64,000 bases of DNA from Phoronis australis (taxonomy: Eukaryota > Animalia > Phoronida), in NCBI GenBank assembly GCA_002633005.1, contig NMRA01000044.1, positions 1,224,283-1,288,282 of the forward strand, given 5' to 3'. The translations under genes were made by a program, and so were the position numbers. Under the pieces are notes generated by a model. That model made no database searches, had not been told where the DNA came from, and was given only the letters and a program-made list of their open reading frames with translations. Shown here one piece after another: positions 4,851 to 60,129 of this stretch (the first letter of the stretch is position 1; each line of letters starts with the position of its first letter).

Positions 4851-5253
4851 TGAAGCGCCAAAGGGTTCTTAAACGGGCACCTTTCCGTGCGCGTTGAAAT
4901 GTGCTTAATCAAGGCGCAGTTTTGCTTAATCAACGCGTAGTTTTACTTGATCAGCGTAGTGTGAAACATACGAGTAAATTTAACAGGGCCATCATTTACG
5001 TGGTCACTTAATAAGAATCTACAACATACTTAACAAAAGTTGCCTTGCACCTACGTAGAAAGTTTTCCGCCATTTTAAGAATTCAGAGCAAGGGCGCGAT
5101 TAGATTATATGAACTGACTCAAAGTACGCGTTGATTAAGTAAAACTATGTGTTGATTAAGTAAAATCGGGCGTTGATTAAGCAAAACTACGCGTTGATTA
5201 AGCACATTTCTACGCCCAGAAAGGTTCTCGTTTGAGAACCCTTTGGCGCTTCA
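4851..5253. mobile_element. Foldback MITE with long TIRs containing 21-bp tandem subrepeats
   Basis: tgaagcgccaaagggttct... / ...agaaccctttggcgcttca. Arms carry (cttaatcaacgcgtagtttt[ag])n and its reverse complement. TA on the left flank. Confidence 0.85.
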
Positions 5254-8200: not shown

Positions 8201-10215
8201 TGAAAATTGGTTTAGCTATATCGTTTTAACTTAAAAATGCGTTTTGTTCGCACAAGTTTGATACCGCTAAAACGCTTTAACGATGTCGTACGAAATGTAT
8301 TAGCGGCGTGTATTTGTGCAGTCCAACATTCGGCAGACCCTTTCAGGGTTAATGCGTTGTCGACGCTTGTGTTTGACGTGTTAAAACGCTCCAGCTAAAA
8401 CTCTTTGTTTTTGCAACAAATTTAAAACGTTTTCGCTTAAAACAGTCTTGCTAATCGTAGACTATAGGACATGAACAGTCAACTGTACATTCTAAATGCA
8501 CACAATCTGAGATGCGCACAGGGTCGACCACATCGACATCACTATTCACTAGGGGCGCCTACTAGTGTTATGAACCTTTCACTTCCGGCAATAACGTCTG
8601 CTCACTAAACTTGTCAAATCAGTCTTACATTTGCTTGATTTTACACCACATTGCATGGTATGGTGAGAGAGGACAAAAACCGCCCTCTATGACAATTAAG
8701 ACTCGTTTAATTTCCTTTTGGCTCAAGACTCTGAGGGGTCACAATACGAAATTCCCGTATACAAAGTAAAAAAATTACTACTAATAGTTCACTATTATAC
8801 TAATTATGAATTTATTTCCAAATGGATCTACAGTGTTCAAAGAGTATTATCAGAAAGTGGTTTCATCTATATTTGACTGACTCACGGTCAAGACTTAGAC
8901 GAGAAATCTCAATACCTTACAAAGTTAGTTTTCCGAAATGTCCACAGAAACCACCGGCAATAGTCTGATACAACGTGCCATTGTCTGACATAACGTGTCC
9001 GAATTTTGAGAACCAGTTTGATGCCTGTTATTCAGTGGAGAAAACTGGTTCTCAAAATTCCGGCACGTTACATCAGACCATTACCAAAACCACCTTCCAT
9101 TACTACTGCTTATTTAAAACGGAATTTCATATGGAGAAAAAGCTTTTTATTATTGACAGCTATTACAGAATAACTTATTGTAAATTTAGATGTAAAACGT
9201 TTCGCCTACTTGTGAACAAAGACAAGTTTGCAAGCTGTCCAGTTGAGGACATCCATTGGTGACGAGAATCATCATACCTTAGTCTGCTATCATTTCTATG
9301 CAGGCAGAACATCACTTGTAATCGAATGATATTTTACAACCTACACGAAATCAGCAGAGTGCTTTTGTCTCATTTTTTCAGTTTCACGGAGTTGGCAAAC
9401 TCAAATGCTTTGTACAATTTGTCTACTCACAACATCTGAAAAATACAGTCTACCCCATTCAAGTGAAACATTATAACTAAGTCTTGTTAAAAGAGCAGTT
9501 TGAATATTGCCGTTGTAGACCACTTTTTGATCTTCCTTGGCCCCTTTAGATAGTTCTGCGGAATAAATATTCTCGGAATTACGTACGAAAAACGAAAACA
9601 CATTTTTGGGGATTACTGTACTGTGAGATAGACTTCTTGAAGTTATTAGCTTTGACCAGAGATAGAAGATAACATAATCCGTTGTGTTTTTGAGACTTTA
9701 TTACAAATCGCCATTTCTCGCTGTTACGTGTCAGACATTCGCTGAAATCAGTATTAATTAGTGTCTTCACCTTCTAAATGCGCTTAAAATATAGAGACAT
9801 TTAACGAGTGGGATTTTATTCAATGACACACCGTTAGGGTGCGACTTACGAGGTGCTGAGTTCGATTCCACACTGCAGCTTGTTTCAGAAAAAAAATGTC
9901 GCCAATAATGTCCTTTTAACAAAAATATTATAGTAGTTTCTTGTGCTAACAGACTTTATGTATGTAGTTAGATGATTTTCGTCAGAGAGTGATGTACATT
10001 GCAGTACTTTTAATGGTTGTTCGTTATATAAGTATTCGACTTATTCTTTTGTATTACAAATTATTAAATGCCCCATTATTGTCACCATCTTTATGTCTTT
10101 TTTATTTTATTCCTAGTTAATAATTAGTCATTTGTTTCCGTCCGGTGTGTCTAGCTACAACCAATCAATATGTTTTGAGCTTGTCTCAAATGTATTCTAC
10201 CTCAAGCCATATAAC

Positions 10216-11186
10216 TGTACGTTATTGTTTCACTTGGTTTAGTAGGCTGCATTTAAGCATAATATATACTCTCACACTCCAGTTGCGGGGAAGGTCGTAA
10301 TTTTCATATACTGTTACACATTGTGACATAATTGTATTCACTGAGACTGTTACAGCTATTGGTAATGTTACTAAACGGAGGTTGAGTTGTGCATTGGAAG
10401 CGAGTGGCACAGCATGTGGGAATTACATAAGTGTCAGAATATAGACTGACACTGCTTTTAGTTGGATTGTTTTGTTTGGTAATCTTGTTTGATTAGCCCC
10501 TGAGTTACGTACAATGATGATGTAATTTGTTTACTACAGAATAGTATGGAACTTTCTAGTAGATCGAGTTCGGTAGTGACGATGTAATTTGTTTACTGCA
10601 GTATAGTGTGGAACTTTCTAGAAGACTCTAGCATGACAGTGATCAATGCAGTCTGGAATATTCTAGAGACTAGTAAATGTTTGTAGAATGATTGGGTAGA
10701 TTCGGGAAAGTTCTAGAATGTGCTTGAATTGATGTAAAGTTCCAGAACAATGCATTAGGCTATAAATACACAAGCACGGGTTAGTGTTAGTCAGATCAAG
10801 TCAGTTCAAGAGAAGATCAAGTCCGTTAATCGGTGAGTTCAAGAAAGTTAATTAGGAGATTACAGTTTAGTTGCAGTGAAGAGAATCAGCAGTTACAGCG
10901 ATAGTCAATAGAGAGCCAGCTATAGAGACAGCAGGTTATTGAATCAACGAGTGTCGCAGTTGCTGAACGTGTCTCAGAAGTTCATCACAAGTCAAGGCTT
11001 CGCAGCATTGGCTGGAGCATAAACAGACATTACGTCGGACATTTTGTTTGAGTAGGTTTGTGAACGTACGGTCGGGATTAATAAAGGATTAACTCGAACC
11101 AGTCTTCAGTCAATCGTCGCACCGAAAGCTATTAGCACCGGTCTGTAACAACCTGCGCCCACCCACACACGGAGAAAAACGTTACA
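10216..11186 (+). mobile_element. Solo LTR (~970 bp), Gypsy or BEL/Pao type
   Basis: Begins TGTACGTT, ends AACGTTACA (TG...CA imperfect inverted termini), flanked by ATAAC/ATAAG (5-bp TSD, one mismatch). TATAAATA at 10761 and AATAAA near 11080. Confidence 0.75.
10549..10806 (+). promoter_or_regulatory. Heat-shock element array + TATA + Inr-like motif inside the LTR
   Basis: GAActTTCtaGAA at 10611-10623; TTCggGAAagTTCtaGAA at 10701-10718; GAAtaTTC at 10656; GAActTTC at 10549; TTCcaGAA at 10740; TATAAATA at 10761; TTAGTC at 10787 and TCAGTT at 10801. Confidence 0.7.
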
Positions 11187-12437
11187 ATAAGAATTATCGG
11201 AGGTGCATATCTGCTGGCTATTATCCACAGCAACACCTTTTTCTAGATGCGTGAATTGATTTAGGATAAAAAGTACCGTTAAAACGGTTAAAAGGATATC
11301 AAACCCGGGTTTCGACTTGAGAACGGAAATTAACAAGGACTTTCCCATTAAGCCCTCTAAAGCAAAACAATGCTCTGCAACTCCGTAAAAAATCTCCTAA
11401 ACGGGCAAGTTACAAGACACTTGTAGGGAAAGATCACCCACCAAGAACCATAATATCCATTCTACTACTGATGTGTTTTAATTGAATGCTGCTTTTATTG
11501 CATCAATGAGTGGGACACCGATAGTGCATTAGCAAGGAAGAGAACGAGAGTTGGTTGAAATCACCTAAATAGGACTTAATATCATTTTGGTCCCAAACGC
11601 TCAAAGTAGAAAACACTTGCAGATGCCTTGTTCTGACACTGCTTGTTTAGAAATAAGGCGTTTTCTCGTTTTCTCACTTCCAATGTCTAATGCAAAAGAA
11701 GAAATGCAAAGTGTTATTACTGGGAAATTAACGGAAATATCGAGGATATGGCTTTCCTTTTTCTGATGTGCCTTACTTTCTTGAAAGGTACAGGCAGCGC
11801 CACCATTGAAAACCGTTGTTTCGGTTCATGTTTTGTTCTTTGCTGAAGCGGCCAAACGTTCCTAAGCAACAGCGTATAGTAAAATCAAACAATATGAAAG
11901 TAGCATGTGTAGGAAATATGGAGGGGGCATAAGGGATATGTCTAGACGGTGACTGGGCTATTCAGACCTCGGGGTAACAGATAGCAAATCCCACAATACG
12001 GCTTAGACCGTAGATGAGGGTTTTAGAATGAATGATATATTCCCTGCTTCTTACGAGAGTGTATCTAGGGGCGACCTGATCCCACACCCACTTCCCTGTT
12101 CCCCCTTTTCCCGAAATTGGTGCTGTCTTATTGCCGGATTTCCTTTACCGTACGCTGTTGCTTACAACAATTAGACACGATACCCAGGCCGCTTTCAATA
12201 CATGTTTTATCAGTTTATCGTCCTTTTTACTACTTTTTAACTATTTCATTACCTCGAACAGCATTTTAGTGCTTTATATCGTTTTACAAGCATTCTTAAG
12301 TTAATATGATACCACCATGGCCTGAAAGGAATCTCCCAATTACGATAACGGGGAGATTCATAATCACTGCCGCTAACTTGATTCATTCCATTTTGATGTT
12401 TTCGGTTTCGGGTTGATTTTTATTAACACCGAGTAGG

Positions 12438-12575: not shown

Positions 12576-14523
12576 AGTCATAGGATACACTAGACATTAA
12601 AATTCTATGCAGTCAACGACTGATAACACGCCTTCGTAACAGAGCATGGCGAATTCGTTCCGACAACCTGACTTTTGAAAAGTAGTGTAGCATCATTAAA
12701 ACACACACTTCTAAGTAATGGCTACCCCCAAATTTTCTGGTTCCCGTACTCATGCTCCTGAGAACCAGCATATTGACCCAGGAGAGAAAAACTTCTTTAT
12801 CTAAATCCCGTTTATTAGTGATCCAAGCTACAAATTGAAAAGAGAGTTAAATCGTCTTGTAAAAATGTTTATCCAATCAACAAAATGACCTGAAGTGTAA
12901 ATCACCGTACTTGGATCGATTGTCGGGATTGCCCGCAGTTTTACGATGCCTTGACTACACGGCGTCTCAGTCAGCGCATAAGCGAATAAATAAAACATAC
13001 GATAGTAATGCCATCTATCGTCACTCGGTGACTGCTCAGCATCGTATCCTTTGTTATGAGAACAACTGAACACCCAATGTTTACATATCAAAGAATCCCT
13101 GCACGTTCTCCAATCAAGCATTTTTATCACTCAAGAACAATATAACGTCAACAAGACTACAGCTCTGGCCATGACTTCCGTTCCCCCGTTTACTTTACAT
13201 GTTTCCAATGTCTGGTGTCTCCTATCTTTCTGTCTGTAGGCACTGGTGGTGGTTTTAAGTTATAACCGAAACGTTTGTTTGTATATATTTATGTAAATAT
13301 GTTTATTAAAGCGTTCATCATCAACTTCCTGTTCACTATTTACCATAAAACGACCGGCTGTAAAATTTGATTGGTACACCGTTCACATGAGGGAGAAAAC
13401 ACCGGATTCTTTCTTAAAAAGACTCCTTTACAAATCATGCTTGTCTAAACAGGCATTTTGGGGGGGCTCTTTTACAACCACCAAAGCCGAACGTTAAACA
13501 TCGGCTTTTTGAAGTTGCTTGTGATTCTATGACATATTGTATTTTGGTTAAGACACTACCCAAGGAAAGTGAACAGCCAACCCCGCCGACCCCACACCCA
13601 TGGCAAAGGACTATTAAATATCAGTGGTCGTGATTTGACATGAGATTTTACGGTGGATAGAAATTCTTCAGTTCCGATATTTACTTCGTTAGCAAACTAC
13701 ACTGAACAGTATGTTTATCATGGAAACAAAAGATGTGAAAATATCCAGTCGTATTTCCTTACGTCTAATGCGCGTTTAGTTAAAATGTAACTAATAATAA
13801 CAAAGAGAATTTATTATAATGTACTGGATAGGCTACTCCTTAATAATGTCCTATTTAACTCCTGGTCATGCCGTAACTGAATATCATTTTCTGACCGGAA
13901 CGAGTAATGTGCGATTAGGTAAAAAAATTATCGTAAAGCGGTTAGTGTCTGTGAACCCCAAAACGCCTCCTCCGCCACATCTTATAATACGGATGCGTTG
14001 TTTTGTTTTCCCGCAATTCCTCGACAGTACAAACTGGCCAAAAACGATGACGCGCACAGTCCTGTTGCCACGAGGATTTTTTAATTCTGGCGTTTTGCTC
14101 TTGAAGTTGTTAGACATATAATTTGTTCATGGTTGAGTTTATGTTCCGGTCTGTTTCATCAGTATTTGTCTAATGTACGATCGATCAGAAACGTTAACAG
14201 TAACTGTACAACAACTTTGGTAACTGATCTTCAGGGTGCACGTGTACTTTCGACATTCCTACCAACCAACTCGCTCGTTCCTCCGCAAAATACTTATAGC
14301 AGTCTTCAATTACCGCAGATACACAATGGACACGGAGTTCAATTCGCAGGTTTGTGGTGTTGGCCAGCGATCAAACTATAAATCAAAAGCGCTACGGTTG
14401 CATTTGTTTTCGTCACGCAACGACCAATTTGCATGCCGATGGGAATTATTTAGGAGAAATAGTCCAGAATAGTGGCAAGCGTGGGCTTTCCAATACCCAA
14501 GACAGGGGTACCGTAGAATCATA

Positions 14524-14881
14524 CGCAGGAGCATCGCATCTTACGCACGAACCACCTACGAACCTATGAAACATGCATACTAACCCATGAATCATGCATA
14601 CGAGCCCAAAAATCACACATACGAACAAAAATCATCTGCACAAACCACAAAAATCATACATACGAACACAAAATCAAACACACGAGCATCGAATGACACG
14701 CACGAACACTTTATCGTTTGGTGGTTCGTGTGTATAGTTCGGATGCTCGTACGTATGATTTGTGTTCGTATGAGTGATTTTTGTGGTACGTGCGCATGAC
14801 TTTTGTTCGTATGCGCCATTTTGGGTTCGTATGCATGATTCATAGGTTCGTAGGTGGTGCGCATGATGCGATGCCCCTGCG
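14524..14881. mobile_element. Palindromic foldback MITE, TA-flanked
   Basis: TA|cgcaggagcatcgcatc ... gatgcgatgcccctgcg|TA. Arms built of ~20-bp catacgaac subrepeats, mirrored around ~14715. Confidence 0.85.
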
Positions 14882-17092
14882 TATGATTTGATGATACCCT
14901 CGGACAAATGCTGTCAAATAATACAATACCATAAGTCTTTTGTACACATTAGTTAGATTGATTAACGAACTTAGAAAGTCAAAATAAGTTGTAAACTTTC
15001 TCACCTTGCGACACTATAGTTTGCCTCTGAATTTCCAAAAGTGTGCTAAGCAAGTGATCCGCTTATAGACACTGGAAGACTATGAAAATGTCGTGCTAAA
15101 TTAGCGCTAGATGGCGTTTTGATGTTAGAACTCTTCTTGTTTGCGTAAAAACACCCCAGCTCGTGCAGAAACTAAATTGAAAGGAATTAATTAAATCCGA
15201 AATCATTAGATTATCAATTACATGTGGATAAGATTACTCTAACAAAGCTAAAAATACTAAAAGTCAATCGCTCGGACCCAATTTGTTCACGAACAAGTGC
15301 TTTAAAAGTGCAATCTACGTGATGAACAAGTATGTCATAGGGATTACTGAACAAAAACATTATGCTATTGCGCGGTATTCACGGTCATGCTGATTTTGAA
15401 ATCGATTATTCAAACTTTTCATTTTCTCTTCATTTTGGAGAACTTTTATTTCCAAAGGCCAATTGCTACATGCACACACTCTTATCAATGAAATAAAAGT
15501 TTCATGAGGCGAATAAACACCCATCTCATCGCTGGACGTATGTACTTCATGTACTTCGAGTGCAACACGGCTCGAGAATTTAGGGACAGATGCACAATCG
15601 ATACAATAAATATCTATAGACACTGCTCCAGCAAGTACACTTCAAACACACACGAGGTGTCAATACCCTGTACCCTGCAACGGACGACTGGAAGTGGTAC
15701 TAATGACAAAAGAGAGAGTAGAAAGCAGTTCATCGCTCGTGTTACAAGGGTACCTTTCTGAAGTGCAAGATAGTCAATAGTACTCGCGAGTGAAAGCCAC
15801 TGCGATCACATCCCTCCCTATACCAAGAATCCAACAATTAAATTGTAATGCATAGGGTGTGTTCTTGAAGCTCTATTTACGAGTTCGGCGAGATCACGTA
15901 AGTCCGAATTATGCGACGTAGACATTGGCCTTATTACACCAATTTAAGGTCACGAGCATATGAAAAGTCACCAGAGATTCTTAAGTTTCAGTTCTTATCA
16001 AAACATTATTGTAAATCCGAGATGCTAACTTACTAATGGAAAGCACAAACATTGATTTTGAACTTTGCTATTTTGGCGGAGGCTATTTTTTCGCTTGACC
16101 TGTTCACAAGATCGTATAAAATTTACATTTCTAAACATTTATATCCGAGGGTACACTTCCCTCTACCGGAAATTGTGCTGCGTACAAGTCGTCGTAGGCG
16201 AAGGCAAGGGGCAGATACTTCCCAGATTTGAACATTTAGCATTAGAGGTAAACAGTGAAACACAATGACAGCGTTTGTCATTCACTCTTTTTAGGGAATT
16301 GACTGGGCATTTTTGGGGGTGAACCAATTTAAAATGCATGTCCTCTACAAACACTTGAAGACGGACAGTGTTCATTTGAAAATCCATTAGATTTCCAGTT
16401 GCTTAATACACTCTAGAAGACAATATTTGTTTGAAAGTGTACATCATTTAACATTAACGAGGTCCCTGACGGAGAAAGGTTAAGATGAGAACATCAACAG
16501 GGGCTCCAGGTCTTGAAGAGTAGGCACGGGGCAATTGCCTCTTTGCTCTCTGACACTGTCAAATATTCACGTGGCAAAATAGACGAAATTTTGGCAAAAA
16601 TCGTAAAACATTGTCATGAGTGCGAAACACTACGGTATTAAAACACGCGGACCAAACAACCAAAAATGTGAGACTGCATTAAGAAGATAGCTATGACTGG
16701 AATGAAGAAGATTGAAGTTTGGCATCACTTAAAGACCATTGTTTATGATCTAAAATATTTCCGAAGGTTGATATCGGCTAGAATGTCAATATTTTCGCCA
16801 AATAGTTTAAAAAACTATCGTATATGTTGAAGATCGTGAATAGGAATGCATTATCATTGAAGAGGGATTGCTCGTGCGCGCGAGTGTGTGACATTACCTG
16901 ATAAGGTGAGTTTTGCCTGATTTCAAGGTGCTTAACGTATTGAACTACAAAGATTTCGTCTATTTATGTATAAGCATAAGTATAAATCATTAACTGTAGC
17001 AGGGTACCACTGGAATGAACCAATATTTACGGTTGGAAACACGAATTAAGTCTGAATATTTCTTGGGTGAGGGTTCCAAGTCCTCCCGGGAT

Positions 17093-31348: not shown

Positions 31349-31892
31349 GGTTTCATGACATTAGTCCGAAGGTGTTCTAGTCCGAAGGTGCACTAGTTCG
31401 AAGGTGCGCACTAGTTCGAAGGCGCACTAGTTCGAAGGTGCGCACTAGTTCGAAGGCGTTAGGCGCACTGGTTCGAAAATATATGATATTTCGTACTCAG
31501 AAGTATTTCTCATATGTTTTACATGCAAGAATACACAATACTCCTGTTGTTAGTCGCAGTGATGCAACCCTCCCTATCGAAAACAACCTCCAGTCGGGTA
31601 CCAATTCACTTTGTTCGGGTTTCCCGCACGTGCGAAATCGAACTTCAAGGCATGCCTCGAGTGGTTACAGGCCGGAATGTTCTGAAAACCAGAGTATGAT
31701 TCAGATGCAGTGCTGCACTTGCTACTGTGTATCAGAAAGTTTCGTAGAATGCCCACAAAAATGCATTTTAATGCTTTATGGCTCAGTTTCGCCTTATTAT
31801 CGGACCTTCGGACGAGTGCACCTTCGGACAAGTTCACCTTCGGACTAGTGCACCTTCGGACTAGTGCACCTTCGCACTAGTGAGCTGCTCCC
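31349..31892. mobile_element. Mutator(MULE)/foldback-type element with 16-18-bp tandem-repeat arms and a 9-bp TSD
   Basis: GTCCCGTTG|gg...(ctagt[ct]cgaaggtgca)n ... (tgcaccttcggactag)n...cc|GTCCTGTTG. A 9-bp TSD (one mismatch) with G..C termini fits Mutator-like elements. Confidence 0.8.
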
Positions 31893-44800: not shown

Positions 44801-47443
44801 TCATTTTCTACGGACAGCACAATGAATTGAGATGCCCATGTGATTTTTGAGTAAGAGTGCGCAAGGCCAGGAAAGTGTTGCAGAGGCCATAGAGAGGTCT
44901 TTGAGTGTTGTATATATTCTCAAAGGAATACAGCATAGAAAATACAAATCATTCACGACAGCAAAAGGTGTATGTGCGTCGAATACAAAATTTTTGAAGG
45001 CAACGGATAGGATGTTGGCCAAACATGATGCTTCCTGTTTGGTTTTTTAAATCATATCCTAATAACCTAAACAAGATTTGTTTGCCCTTTTTAACCAAAG
45101 ACTAGTACAGTGAACCTCGGTTAAGTCGGCGTGCTTAGTTGGATCTCCGTTCAATTCGGACAAAGTTCCGTCGAACGGTTGACCTAGCATTAATTCCTTA
45201 ATAAGGTCCTGCGTGTAAGTCGGGTTTCTTAGGTCTGTTCTTCGCTCAACTCGGAGAAAATTCGAGTAACAATTGACCAAAATCCCCCCATTTTACCTCT
45301 TTTTAAGTCGGGTTCCGGCACATAATTTTTTCTCTTAAAAAATCACCGAACATGCATGTACAAAAATGACAAGTACGGTAAGCAAACATTTATTTGTTAA
45401 TTCTAAGTACCCCGCGACCTGAAATGACGGAATGACTACTGATCACTGAAGTAGGCATAACTTGGATCAAAGTCAATCTTCAGATAAGTCGGAACTCCCT
45501 TATCTCGGAGGAAATTTCTCTGTCCCAATGGATCCGACCTAACCTAGCTTTATTGTATTTTAAATGTAAAAGAAGAACCTTTTTAGTTTTAGCACGTATT
45601 TTACTTGTTCTTACTTCTTACCACTCTTTGAGAGATACTGTGCGCATTTCAATGGTCTTATTTTAAATGGCTTCATTTTTATGTGTTTTTGAGGACCGTG
45701 TTTCTCTTTGAAAAAGATAAACTACCCTTTTCCCGCAAATTTGAGAACCACCAAGTGTGATGCCGGAGTAGGGGGACCGAGACTCCTGCACAAAGCGTCA
45801 TCAGGATGAGTTAGAATGCACATGATCACGTGAAAGAGGCTGGACCGCCACCGTGTAGTAGTAGCGAGTTGAATATGGGTAAATAAACCAAACCTGGCGT
45901 GAGCTCCGTAGACCGAGTTTCTAGCGAGAAAATCAAGAACTCACAAGACTTCGCGAGATGTCGTGTATTGTAAGCAAAGCAGGTGATCACGCTAGCTTCC
46001 TTAGCTAGATTCTTATGAAATTCATCCACAGGTGCCCTTTCCGTATGCGCAATACACTCCCAAAAACGCAAAACCCCGAGAGATTTCGCCTTGCATTAAA
46101 AACAAAGCACGTGATCACATTAGCTTTATTCGCGAGATTCTTACGTCTGCCGAACTCGGCTCAATTTAGTCATCTAGGCTATTTACGTGTTAAATCGAAA
46201 GAAAAAACGATGTTTTAAACGATTGAAACAATATTTATGTCCAAGGTATAGTTTTAAAGGGTGACAAAAGACTATTTAGGAGGACAACGACGTTATTTTT
46301 TGCCCCAATATAATCCCAGAGGGGCCATCCGTGATGACAATAACACGGAGAAAAGGGGGTGGGGTGGGGTAGCTCAGTCTCGGTGAACGAGNTCATTTTC
46401 TACGGACAGTACAATGAATTGAGATGCCCATGTGATTTTTGAGTCAGAATGCGCAAGGCCAGTAAAGTGTTGCAGAGGCCGTAGAGAGGTCTTTGAGTGT
46501 TGTATAACCTGGATAAAAGTCAATCTTCAGATAAGTCGGAACTCGCTTATCTCGGAGGAAATCTCTCGGTCCCAATGGATCCGACTTAACCTAGCTTTAT
46601 TGTATTTTAAATGTAAAAGAAGAACCTTTTTAGTTTTAGCACGTATTTTACTTGTTCTTACTACCACTCTTTGAGAGATATTGTGTGCATTTCAATGGTC
46701 TTATTTTAAATGGCTTCATTTTTATGTGTTTTTGAGGACCGTGTTTCTCTTTGAAAAAGATAAACTACCCTTTTCCCGCAATTTTGAGAACCACCAAGTG
46801 TGATGCCGGAGTAGGGGGACCGAGACTCCTGCACACAGCGTCATCAGGATGAGTTAGAATGCACATGATCACGTGAAAGAGGCTGGACCGCCACCGTGTA
46901 GTAGTAGTAGCGAGTTGAATATGGGTAAATAAACCAAACCTGGCGTGAGCTCCGTAGACCGAGTTTCTAGCGAGAAAATCAAGAACTCACAAGACTTCGC
47001 GAGATGTCGTGTATTGTAAGCAAAGCAGGTGATCACGCTAGCTTCCTTAGCTAGATTCTTGCGGCTACGAAATTCACCCACAGGTGCCCTTTCCGTATGC
47101 GCAATACACTCCCAAAAACGCAAAACCCCGAGAGATTTCGCCTTGCATTAAAAACAAAGCACGTGATCACATTAGCTTTATTCGCGAGATTCTTACGTCT
47201 GCCGAACTCGGCTCAATTTAGTCATCTGGGCTATTTACGTGTTAAATCGAAAGAGAAAACGATGTTTTAAACGATTGAAACAATGTTTATGTCCAAGGTA
47301 TAGTTTTAAAGGGTGACAAAAGACTATTTAGGAGGACAACGACGTTATTTTTTGCCCCAATATAATCCCAGAGGGGCCATCCGTGATGACAATAACACGG
47401 AGAAAAGGGGGTGGGGTGGGGTAGCTCAGTCTCGGTGAACGAG
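44801..47443 (+). repeat. Tandem near-identical duplication (44801-46391 / 46393-47443), probably two haplotypes assembled in series
   Basis: Both copies start tcattttctacggacag and end ctcggtgaacgag, separated by a single N at 46392. Copy 2 lacks 44915-45459. Confidence 0.9.
45108..45555. mobile_element. Tc1/mariner-pogo(Tigger)-like MITE
   Basis: TA|cagtgaacctcggttaagtcgg ... ccgacctaacctagctttattg|TA. Confidence 0.75.
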
Positions 47444-54384: not shown

Positions 54385-54444
54385 ATGAGGCAGGGAATGC
54401 AGCAGATGGCGTGTCACTGAATGGCTGAGACCACTGCTAAGTAA
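54385..54444 (+). promoter_or_regulatory. Two abutting uORFs (MRQGMQQMACH*, MAETTAK*) ending in a TAATG overlap with the ATM start
   Basis: ATG54385..TGA54420, immediately followed by ATG54421..TAA54444; the last A of TAA is the A of the ATM ATG. Confidence 0.6.
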
Positions 54445-54503
54445 TGGACGACCTTCTTATTGCTTGCAATACCCTGAAGTCTGAGAAGGCAACAGAGAGA
54501 AAG
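54444..54503 (+). CDS. ATM: ATM kinase, first coding exon (TAN motif)
   Basis: ATG at 54444 (GTAATGG) with in-frame stops just upstream (54426, 54438). Translates MDDLLIACNTLKSEKATERK, matching human ATM N-terminus (NDLLICCRQLEHDRATERK). Donor GTAAC at 54504, phase 0, same position as the human intron after K24. Confidence 0.93.
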
Positions 54504-57123: not shown

Positions 57124-57288
57124 ATGGTCATCGACTGTGTGTCCCCGAGGTACTCAAGGCGTTTTTGTCAGTCCTACAGACACCGTTCCAGTGTGAGCAG
57201 TTTGGGAATGACTTCAGCACGATGCTTTTGAAGAACATTCTGACCTCCAGGGTTCACTGGTCGCAAATTAGTGCAACTCAGTGGAGGA
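57124..57288 (+). CDS. ATM: ATM coding exon 4
   Basis: Acceptor tttacag, donor GTAAGT at 57289. 165 nt, the same length as the orthologous human exon. GHRLCVPEVL...FGNDFSTMLLKNILTSRVHWSQISATQWR vs human APRLKCQELL...[29 protein letters not shown]. Confidence 0.95.
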
Positions 57289-58473
57289 GTAAGTGTATTT
57301 TCTGCGAATTTACTTAGCTGCACTTGATGAGCACAGGTAAAAATATTTGTGAGAATGGTATTGGGGGATTTGGTCATTCTTAGAATGTAATGCCAAGCCA
57401 GTCAATTGTGACAAGTGCCCACAAAGGAAATTTGCGAATACTTAACTAGCTTGGTAACTGAGTATCGTGCGCAGAATTTTGAAGTATTTTTCATACAACT
57501 GGCGTGCTCTCCGATAAGATGCCATGTGGAAGCTATTCAAGTCATCTCACACAGGAAGCGATTCCATATACAACTCTTTAGCATTGCAAGAGCACAAAAA
57601 CATAATTCAGTTGACCCAGTTTCTAATTCTGCTGTTTATGGCTAAGGAAATGCCATTTTATTCATTGATATTGTGAGACCTACTTGTGTGGATCACTTGT
57701 CAATTTTTCTTTGTATGACATGGCATGATGGCCACAGCGAACTTAAAAAAATGTTGAAATATATCTCACTGCATTAAATCCATACAAGAATGCACATGGC
57801 TGTCCACCAAGTACCCTATCACCCTCTAACTGCAGGCTGTTTTTAATCATATGTTTACTTTTAGATGAAGGAAATATATAACATTACAGCACCCAACCAA
57901 AATATGGTGACATTTCCGGTAGTCAGTGTGTTATTTCACCTAGTGAGGGTTTGTTTTGTTTACGTGGTTTGCAGTGTAGCCACCAGGTGTATCCTCTTTT
58001 CATAGTGTGTCTTGTGTGCCCCTTATATTTCACTGAGCTTTTGTCTTTGACCCATTGTTATGGATATGTATTCAGATTGATCATGGGTGTGGTGCAGTTT
58101 TATGGTATGGATGTTAGGTTTGGGCATCCACAGGGCTTCACATTCTGCAAGTTGAAATTTTGTTATTTTGTTTTCTCTTACACTGTGTAAAGTTAACTAG
58201 AATTTGGTCAGTGAGATGCTTATTCTGTTTAGTCTGTCATTGACTTAACTGGCAGTGCTACTACTGTTTATAGGATTTGCTGTTTAGTTAGTGTGGAATG
58301 TTACTTTGTATGCAGTGTCAGTTTGGTAGATTTTGATATCTTGTTTATTGTTGTGTGTTTTTTTTTTCAGTAAACCACAGTGACACTGAACTAAGGTGTT
58401 TTCTTTAATCCAGTTTGCCCGGCCTGTGGTGTCGTCACAAGCGTATGACCAATATCTCTGTTTTTCATTACAG

Positions 58474-58642
58474 CCATATTGAAGACATTCAAGAAGCACA
58501 TGACTCTTGACCCGCCTGTGATCAATGTTGACACGTCCTCACGTGTCTTTCACGCTGCTGTTCAGGGTGCAACATATCAGACTGACATACGAGAGGCAGC
58601 TCTGCTGCCGTTCTTCTACCAATACTTCAGCAAGGATGTCAG
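58474..58642 (+). CDS. ATM: ATM coding exon 5
   Basis: Acceptor tttttcattacag, donor GTGATT at 58643, phases 1/2 keep the frame. ...SRVFHAAVQGATYQTDIREAALLPFF... vs human [26 protein letters not shown]. Confidence 0.92.
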
Positions 58643-59957: not shown

Positions 59958-60129
59958 GAGTAGTCGACACTCTCTGGTGGTGCTTGAGTACATTCTATCG
60001 TCCCTCATCACCTTGTGCCAAGCCGTCGCCTCTAACGCCAGACACCAAGTTTGTAAGTTGGGAGAGAGCGATGCAGTCTTTGTCTCACTGATGTACTACT
60101 GGGGCTCAAGGGGAAGTGAGTCAGTCAAG
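59958..60129 (+). CDS. ATM: ATM coding exon 6 (gene continues beyond the window)
   Basis: Acceptor tttccgtttcag, donor GTAGGC at 60130. LEYILSSLITLCQAVASNARHQVCKLGESDAVFVSLMYYWGSRGSESVK vs human [48 protein letters not shown]. The next expected exon (EVIIE...HHPKG-like) was not found before 64000. Confidence 0.93.

What the first reader, a model, noticed from the sequence alone, without database searches (positions are those of the whole stretch)
10216..11186. Solo LTR wired like an hsp70 promoter: dense heat-shock element array directly before TATA
Seen: within 220 bp upstream of TATAAATA (10761) lie five nGAAn/nTTCn arrays. They include a perfect 3-unit HSE (10611-10623) and a perfect 4-unit HSE (10701-10718) that continues in phase (TGC, then GAA at 10726). 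Two HSEs sit in an internal ~62-bp duplication (10519/10581), so the array was amplified. Established: three or more alternating nGAAn units bind HSF1 trimers, and HSE capture makes the Arabidopsis ONSEN retrotransposon heat-inducible. Inference: this is a heat/proteotoxic-stress-activated LTR retrotransposon family in an invertebrate, and its solo LTRs may act as portable heat-shock promoters.
Basis: partly seen in the sequence, partly recalled or inferred. Interest (0 to 1): 0.85.

Follow-up and report, generated by a model that had tools for sequence, protein, structure and literature searches.

The report
Heat-shock promoter in abundant solo LTR
This is the leftover promoter end of an abundant jumping gene in an animal genome, packed with textbook binding sites for the heat-shock factor just before its TATA box, so heat likely switches the family on, as already shown for similar elements in a flatworm and a plant.

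Summary
The HSE cluster is real. Both perfect arrays of three or more units in the 64-kb window lie here, and 0 of 5000 shuffles match the counts. The left boundary was wrong: the element is a 755-bp solo LTR at 10432-11186 with a perfect 5-bp target duplication, and 10216-10431 is single-copy flank. It belongs to an abundant family: summed contig depth is about 1,900-3,000 times the flank, which is not a copy number. The family also occurs in a second organism, and some copies continue into a PBS-like sequence. Differences among copies avoid the HSE cores (weak test). Family RNA lies on both orientations with no start peak, and this locus's flanks are silent; heat induction is untested. Clade and host phylum are unresolved. 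The best reading is an HSF-driven LTR promoter. Close precedent exists: reporter-validated HSE-bearing LTR families in Macrostomum lignano (PMC12801592) and ONSEN. This scan also noted HSE-rich elements on other DNA (a yeast copia LTR, a flatworm Polinton). Verdict: new member of a known kind; its possible scale is the interesting part.

The parts
10427..10431 (.). left target-site duplication (ATAAG)
   Evidence: identical to 11187-11191; only exact TSD among TG starts in 10000-10759
10432..11186 (+). solo LTR, 755 bp, TG...CA ends, member of an abundant family
   Evidence: TSD; depth step and diverse loose ends at both edges
10515..10625 (+). internal duplication, period 62 bp, each unit carrying one HSE
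   Evidence: self-BLAST 10515-10563 vs 10577-10625, 89.8%; reads suggest one-unit copies also exist
10549..10561 (.). HSE 1: two perfect units plus a one-mismatch third; a full three-unit site in most family RNA reads
   Evidence: (80 of 121, 54 of 85, 56 of 70 reads)
10611..10623 (.). HSE 2: perfect three-unit array, followed in phase by two 2-of-3 units
10651..10668 (.). HSE 3: two perfect units flanked by 2-of-3 units, in phase with HSE 4
10701..10728 (.). HSE 4: perfect four-unit array, then TGC, then GAA in phase; the perfect part ends 42 bp before TATA
10740..10747 (.). HSE 5: two perfect units, 13 bp before TATA
10761..10768 (+). TATA box (only TATAAA on the + strand of the LTR)
10791..10806 (+). 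initiator-like sites; predicted transcription start (not observed)
   Evidence: motif scan; no start pile-up in RNA (table 6)
11080..11085 (+). AATAAA, putative polyadenylation signal
11187..11191 (.). right target-site duplication (ATAAG)
10216..10431 (.).
   Evidence: flank-level DNA depth, zero RNA depth to 10413, no match elsewhere in the window

Best explanation
This is a solo LTR of an abundant LTR-retrotransposon family whose promoter region carries five heat-shock elements before a TATA box, and which is likely switched on by heat-shock factor (HSF) under heat or protein-damaging stress. Shown: the boundaries and target duplication, the HSE/TATA/AATAAA layout, many related copies, and copies that continue into a PBS-like sequence. 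Inferred: this copy arose when the two LTRs of a full element recombined. Inferred: HSF trimers would bind arrays 2 and 4 cooperatively and start transcription about 30-40 bp after TATA. Inferred: the arrays were kept because they raised transcription of full-length elements, not because they serve the host. Untested: induction itself, and whether this particular copy still fires.
For: HSE enrichment is far beyond chance and specific to the 5-bp period. The arrays sit at about -243 to -45 from a predicted start at 10792, all upstream of TATA. LTR anatomy: TG...CA ends and an exact 5-bp TSD. A stretch beginning TGG follows two bases after the 3' end, in one contig of organism B and in 27 RNA reads of organism A. 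The two agree over about 18-19 letters and then differ, as a primer-binding site would. Of 14 listed variable positions in 10549-10747, 0 fall in the 42 core letters and 2 in the 16 spacer letters (P about 0.03). Most family reads carry a full three-unit HSE 1. The share of first-mate-minus RNA rises about 1.35-fold downstream of TATA in 3 of 3 RNA runs. Precedent: in Macrostomum 4 of 6 HSE-bearing families were induced more than 250-fold, including all 3 with two or more HSEs, and mutating the HSEs abolished reporter induction (PMC12801592).
Against: No heat-treated sample or HSF binding data was available. RNA shows no start pile-up, comes from both orientations, and covers the region upstream of TATA almost as deeply as downstream (down/up 1.25-1.39, below the DNA contig ratio of 1.46-1.70). 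That fits passive read-through. The core-conservation test saw only 40 of 111 and 40 of 162 difference rows, chosen by support, and spacer vs core alone gives P=0.07. In Macrostomum 2 of 6 HSE-bearing families were not induced. No internal coding region was recovered, so autonomy and clade are unknown.
Confidence: 0.7

Rival explanations
1. The arrays are HSF sites, but they mainly serve developmental or germline expression (HSF activity in gametogenesis or embryos) rather than heat stress; germline expression is what a heritable retrotransposon needs.
For: HSFs have stress-independent roles in spermatogenesis and embryogenesis in vertebrates (PMC12366260, passages). Family RNA, including PBS-junction reads, is present in runs of unknown condition.
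Against: Long contiguous arrays are the type HSF1 prefers (PMC12366260). The Macrostomum LTR reporter was heat-dependent and appeared absent from gonads.
Confidence: 0.15
2. The HSEs once drove the family, but present copies are silenced or decayed. This solo LTR is inert and the family RNA is passive read-through inside host transcripts.
For: Zero RNA in both flanks; few reads at 99%+ identity (15 of 1339, 6 of 1144, 7 of 818); RNA on both orientations; diverse loose ends past 11186. Most contigs and reads are 90-95% alike to this copy.
Against: This copy keeps perfect 3- and 4-unit arrays and the TATA box. Heat-shock promoters are expected to be quiet without stress, so silence in untreated or unknown samples says little. 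This rival is compatible with the best explanation at family level.
Confidence: 0.3
3. The GAA/TTC pattern is a by-product of short palindromes and local duplication, or a site for another factor such as STAT or BCL6, with no HSF function.
For: Two of the five arrays come from one duplication, and TTCTAGAA is palindromic.
Against: Three arrays lie outside the duplication. Pairs occur only at spacing 2 (8) and never at spacing 3 (0), the STAT/BCL6 spacing as recalled. All five lie just upstream of TATA.
Confidence: 0.05
4. The element is not an LTR but a non-autonomous DNA transposon or other repeat with a 5-bp target duplication.
For: No reverse transcriptase, gag or polypurine tract was recovered.
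Against: TG...CA ends without long inverted repeats, TATA-then-AATAAA order, and a PBS-like continuation in two organisms.
Confidence: 0.05

Closest known systems
HSE-bearing LTR retrotransposons of Macrostomum lignano (Mlig-id115|Mag, id36 and id55|CsRN1, id38|Gmr1/Osvaldo; PMC12801592, parts 1-3 of 6 of the main text read)
   Same: Invertebrate LTR with canonical nGAAn arrays upstream of the TATA box. This copy meets that paper's canonical HSE pattern three times (overlapping count), within its range of one to four per LTR.
   Different: There, induction and HSE dependence were shown; here neither was. Their families have 4-20 mined copies each, whereas this one appears far more abundant (not counted the same way). 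Clade here is unknown and no sequence comparison with those LTRs was made.
ONSEN (Ty1/copia) of Arabidopsis (PMC13602373 listing and abstract start; summary in PMC12801592)
   Same: HSEs in the LTR promoter confer HSF-dependent heat activation.
   Different: Plant host, copia lineage, activation shown. The resemblance is functional convergence, not homology.
HSE-carrying Helitrons of Caenorhabditis (PMC6927752, abstract and section 6 read)
   Same: A repeat family spreads many HSEs through a genome (61.4% of C. elegans HSEs lie in Helitrons), the model for the 'portable promoter' idea.
   Different: Rolling-circle DNA transposons with HSF-1 binding and neighbouring-gene induction shown. Here the carrier is an LTR with its own TATA box and no host target is shown.

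Membership tests
solo LTR of an LTR retrotransposon | TG...CA termini | tested here: met
   10432 begins TGT, 11186 ends ACA
solo LTR of an LTR retrotransposon | 4-6 bp target-site duplication directly flanking one LTR | tested here: met
   exact 5-bp ATAAG at 10427-10431 and 11187-11191
solo LTR of an LTR retrotransposon | dispersed multi-copy family with the same ends | tested here: met
   34 and 37 contigs leave at 11186 and 20 at 10432 into unlike flanks, agreement 0.37-0.42
solo LTR of an LTR retrotransposon | primer-binding site after the 5' LTR in full elements | tested here: inconclusive
   TGG-starting stretch 2 nt past the end, shared over about 18-19 letters by organisms A and B; the match to a tRNA-Arg 3' end is recalled, not tested against a host tRNA
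solo LTR of an LTR retrotransposon | polypurine tract and gag-pol in full elements | not testable with these tools
   no host genome held; collection scans found no copy
Ty3/Gypsy vs BEL/Pao vs Ty1/Copia | reverse-transcriptase phylogeny and domain order | not testable with these tools
   internal region not recovered; a 5-bp TSD does not separate the three (recalled)
heat-activated HSE-LTR elements (ONSEN / Macrostomum type) | canonical three-unit HSEs upstream of the LTR TATA box | tested here: met
heat-activated HSE-LTR elements (ONSEN / Macrostomum type) | HSEs shared across the family | tested here: inconclusive
   0 of 14 listed variable positions in cores, but only the best-supported rows were shown
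heat-activated HSE-LTR elements (ONSEN / Macrostomum type) | strong transcriptional induction by heat | not testable with these tools
   RNA runs X9-X11 carry no stated treatment
heat-activated HSE-LTR elements (ONSEN / Macrostomum type) | HSE or HSF dependence of induction | not testable with these tools
   needs a reporter or ChIP

The most novel reading that the evidence does not exclude
This one LTR family, at hundreds to perhaps more than a thousand copies, supplies most of the strong (four-unit) heat-shock elements of its host genome, each with a TATA box. Heat stress would then fire a genome-wide set of retrotransposon-derived promoters and rewire the heat-shock response, as Helitrons did in Caenorhabditis, but through solo LTRs in an animal whose DNA also appears in marine samples. 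Basis: chance density of perfect four-unit HSEs is 0.31 per Mb, against a family at about 1,900-3,000 times flank depth (an overestimate of copy number).
Probability: 0.2. Interest if true: 0.65.

Novelty: new member of a known kind. Interest (0 to 1): 0.4.

Why it matters
HSE capture by LTR elements has been validated only twice according to PMC12801592 (ONSEN, Macrostomum). That paper notes that strong heat induction of LTR elements in the coral Acropora hyacinthus still lacks a cis-element explanation. A further family with five arrays, in another invertebrate and shared by a second organism, would support repeated convergence. It also gives a ready test of whether warming mobilises retrotransposons or switches on solo-LTR promoters. 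Without induction data and a named host lineage it is a good candidate, not a new principle.

Tried and rejected
Start at 10216 as the LTR end: rejected. No whole genome is held, so copies could not be collected. Scans for family copies or the internal region found nothing usable. A 20-nt window motif gave 0 hits in viral, metagenome and prokaryote genome contigs. A PBS-like motif gave 0 viral hits and 3 metagenome hits, all in contigs of GC 0.54-0.65 without LTR similarity. An HSE-TATA spacing pattern gave 5 viral hits, none homologous to the LTR beyond the motif. Pfam scans of 300 of 322 open frames of 55 aa or more gave no hit above a curated cut-off (22 frames left out, among them low-complexity, duplicated and the last few). 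Rfam and tRNA scans of the window were empty. Host lineage: the ATM exon is only 34-48% identical to its 27 hits, and of 8 looked up only 2 were named, both fish ATM at about 40%, so the phylum was not fixed; one search found nothing. No RNA holder was listed by the index, which is no evidence either way. No empty-site joint appeared among the 15 of 160 joints shown, so insertion polymorphism is unknown. A sequence look-up in earlier scan notes gave nothing. only showed that the right flank is unique in the window.

Full report
Observation. The five arrays, the TATA box at 10761 and the 62-bp duplication are present as described. The window holds only two perfect arrays of three or more alternating GAA/TTC units, and both are here; 10 of 21 one-mismatch three-unit sites lie in 10541-10790. 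In 5000 dinucleotide-preserving shuffles of 10216-11186, none reached the observed 9 two-unit, 3 three-unit, 1 four-unit or 10 one-mismatch counts. In 10541-10760 there are 8 GAA/TTC pairs at spacing 2 and none at spacings 0, 1, 3, 4 or 5, whereas window-wide each spacing gives 42-63. From window triplet frequencies, the chance of two perfect three-unit sites in 755 bp is about 7e-5. Arrays 3 and 4 are in one phase.

Boundaries. Contigs of two DNA runs of one sample stay at flank depth across 10148-10390 and rise from the 10391-10471 bin. Raw RNA reads of three runs give zero depth over 10000-10413 and after 11195. Twenty X2 contigs and one X6 contig break away at 10432, and 34 (X1) and 37 (X2) at 11186, into unlike flanks. 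Position 10432 begins TGT and has an exact 5-bp duplication with the right flank, the only such start in 10000-10759. The element is a 755-bp solo LTR, 10432-11186.

Family. Summed contig depth over the LTR is about 1,900 (X1) and 3,000 (X2) times the flank median. The tool warns this is no copy number, and overlapping short contigs inflate it, so I infer hundreds to perhaps more than a thousand copies. The largest identity class among laid contigs and reads is 90-95%. A run labelled organism B holds pieces at roughly 90-94% identity, and a marine metagenome holds pieces too. One organism B contig and 27 RNA reads of organism A continue, two bases past the 3' end, into a stretch that begins TGG and agrees over about 18-19 letters before diverging. 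This is what a primer-binding site would look like; its likeness to a tRNA-Arg end is recalled. Elements with an internal region therefore likely exist, but I could not retrieve one, so the clade is open.

HSEs across copies. Among the difference rows shown (40 of 111, 40 of 162), 14 positions fall in 10549-10747. None lies in the 42 core letters of perfect units and two lie in the 16 spacer letters (hypergeometric P 0.03; spacer vs core P 0.07). This is weak because the rows were chosen by support. Most family reads carry HSE 1 as a full three-unit site (80 of 121, 54 of 85, 56 of 70). In X9, 72 reads join the pre-repeat sequence at 10497 and 39 join it at 10575, and one X8 contig runs from that sequence through 10599-10703. 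I infer that one-unit and two-unit versions of the duplicated HSE block coexist; three units are not shown.

Expression. About 18-19% of each RNA run was read; 1339 of 12.75 million, 1144 of 11.31 million and 818 of 11.05 million reads lie on the LTR. Treatments are not stated. Joints seen in one orientation only suggest stranded libraries. RNA is on both orientations, there is no start pile-up, and depth upstream of TATA is nearly as high as downstream (ratio 1.25-1.39, against 1.46-1.70 for DNA contigs). That is the pattern of passive read-through. One hint points the other way: the first-mate-minus share rises about 1.35-fold after TATA in all three runs (1.11 to 1.50, 0.95 to 1.30, 0.65 to 0.87). 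This would be extra sense RNA if the libraries are of the usual type, though 3' bias could also give it. Reads at 99% or more identity are rare and both flanks are empty, so this locus shows no read-through in these samples.

Surroundings. Pfam scans of 300 of 322 open frames gave no hit above cut-off. The nearest gene found is ATM, from about 54.4 kb; short exons of other genes could have been missed. ATM places the host among animals but matches its hits at only 34-48% identity. 'Invertebrate' is inferred from this distance and 'marine' from X6; the phylum is not fixed.

Mechanism. Most likely (0.7), HSF trimers activated by heat or protein damage bind arrays 2 and 4 with help from the partial arrays, and start transcription 30-40 bp after TATA. 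In a full element this would produce the genomic RNA; in a solo LTR, a short RNA ending at the AATAAA at 11080 or reading into the flank. The anatomy is shown; binding, induction and start site are inferred. The HSE definition and HSF1's preference for long contiguous arrays are from PMC12366260 (passages). Rivals are developmental or germline HSF use (0.15), present-day inertness of this copy (0.3, compatible with the family-level reading), a chance pattern (0.05) and a non-LTR repeat (0.05).

Comparison with what is known. PMC12801592 (parts 1-3 of 6 read, supplements not read) reports six Macrostomum LTR families with canonical HSEs. Four were induced more than 250-fold, and HSE mutation abolished reporter induction. 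It found only two solo LTRs near mildly induced host genes, calls itself the second validated case after ONSEN, and notes coral LTR induction without a cis-element. PMC6927752 (abstract and section 6) shows Helitrons holding 61.4% of C. elegans HSEs. ONSEN was seen in a listing only. A heat-shock promoter in Dictyostelium DIRS-1 is recalled; one search was a listing only. Searches pairing heat shock element with coral (2 papers), echinoderm (0), solo LTR or invertebrate (20 of 178 listed) and mollusc or marine (20 of 353 listed) showed no description of such a family in other marine invertebrates. Two earlier notes of this scan describe HSE-rich elements on other DNA; I did not test them.

Verdict. 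A real, well-built HSE-bearing solo LTR of an abundant family, with a corrected left end. It works like the Macrostomum and ONSEN promoters by anatomy; membership of the heat-activated class awaits induction data. New member of a known kind, interest 0.4. The bolder reading, that the family supplies most strong HSEs of the genome and rewires the heat response, has probability about 0.2 and would deserve 0.65.

Noticed in passing
window 54444-54503, 57126-57311, 58521-58631, 59974-60126 (+): Exons of an ATM kinase gene (tblastn with fish ATM: two clear matches, two weak; weak Pfam TAN). It is the nearest gene found, about 43 kb downstream of the LTR on the same strand.
   Followed up: partly
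window 11188, loose end of one X8 contig: The PBS-like stretch is followed at once by a second TGG-starting stretch, which may be a second primer-binding site in tandem; organism A reads differ there.
   Followed up: no
window 10882, 11161, 11188 in RNA run X11: 25-39 reads each run from LTR sequence into one specific other sequence (agreement 0.95-1.0), so some copies elsewhere lie inside expressed transcripts.
   Followed up: no
L005:1399-1464 (IMGVR_UViG_3300020043_007819): A 2.4-kb circular contig with Rep-like and capsid-like frames (likeness recalled, no family search run) carries a dense HSE array (3 overlapping three-unit matches) next to a TATA box and a stem-loop-like origin motif. 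It may be a small eukaryotic DNA virus using host HSF; unrelated to the LTR.
   Followed up: partly
L007:2859-3100: AT-rich viral contig with a tandem array of TTCTAGAA palindromes giving 4 three-unit HSE-like matches; probably a repeat of another function.
   Followed up: no
window 45457-47365: Tandem duplication of about 1047 bp at 96-100% identity; a recent duplication or an assembly artefact.
   Followed up: no
window 4851-5253, 14506-14899, 31359-31883, 8980-9081: Palindromic MITE-like elements, some with 16- or 21-bp subterminal tandem repeats.
   Followed up: no
window about 9580-9750 and 11363-11605: Two further multi-copy repeats flank the LTR within 1 kb (raised depth and loose ends).
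   Followed up: no
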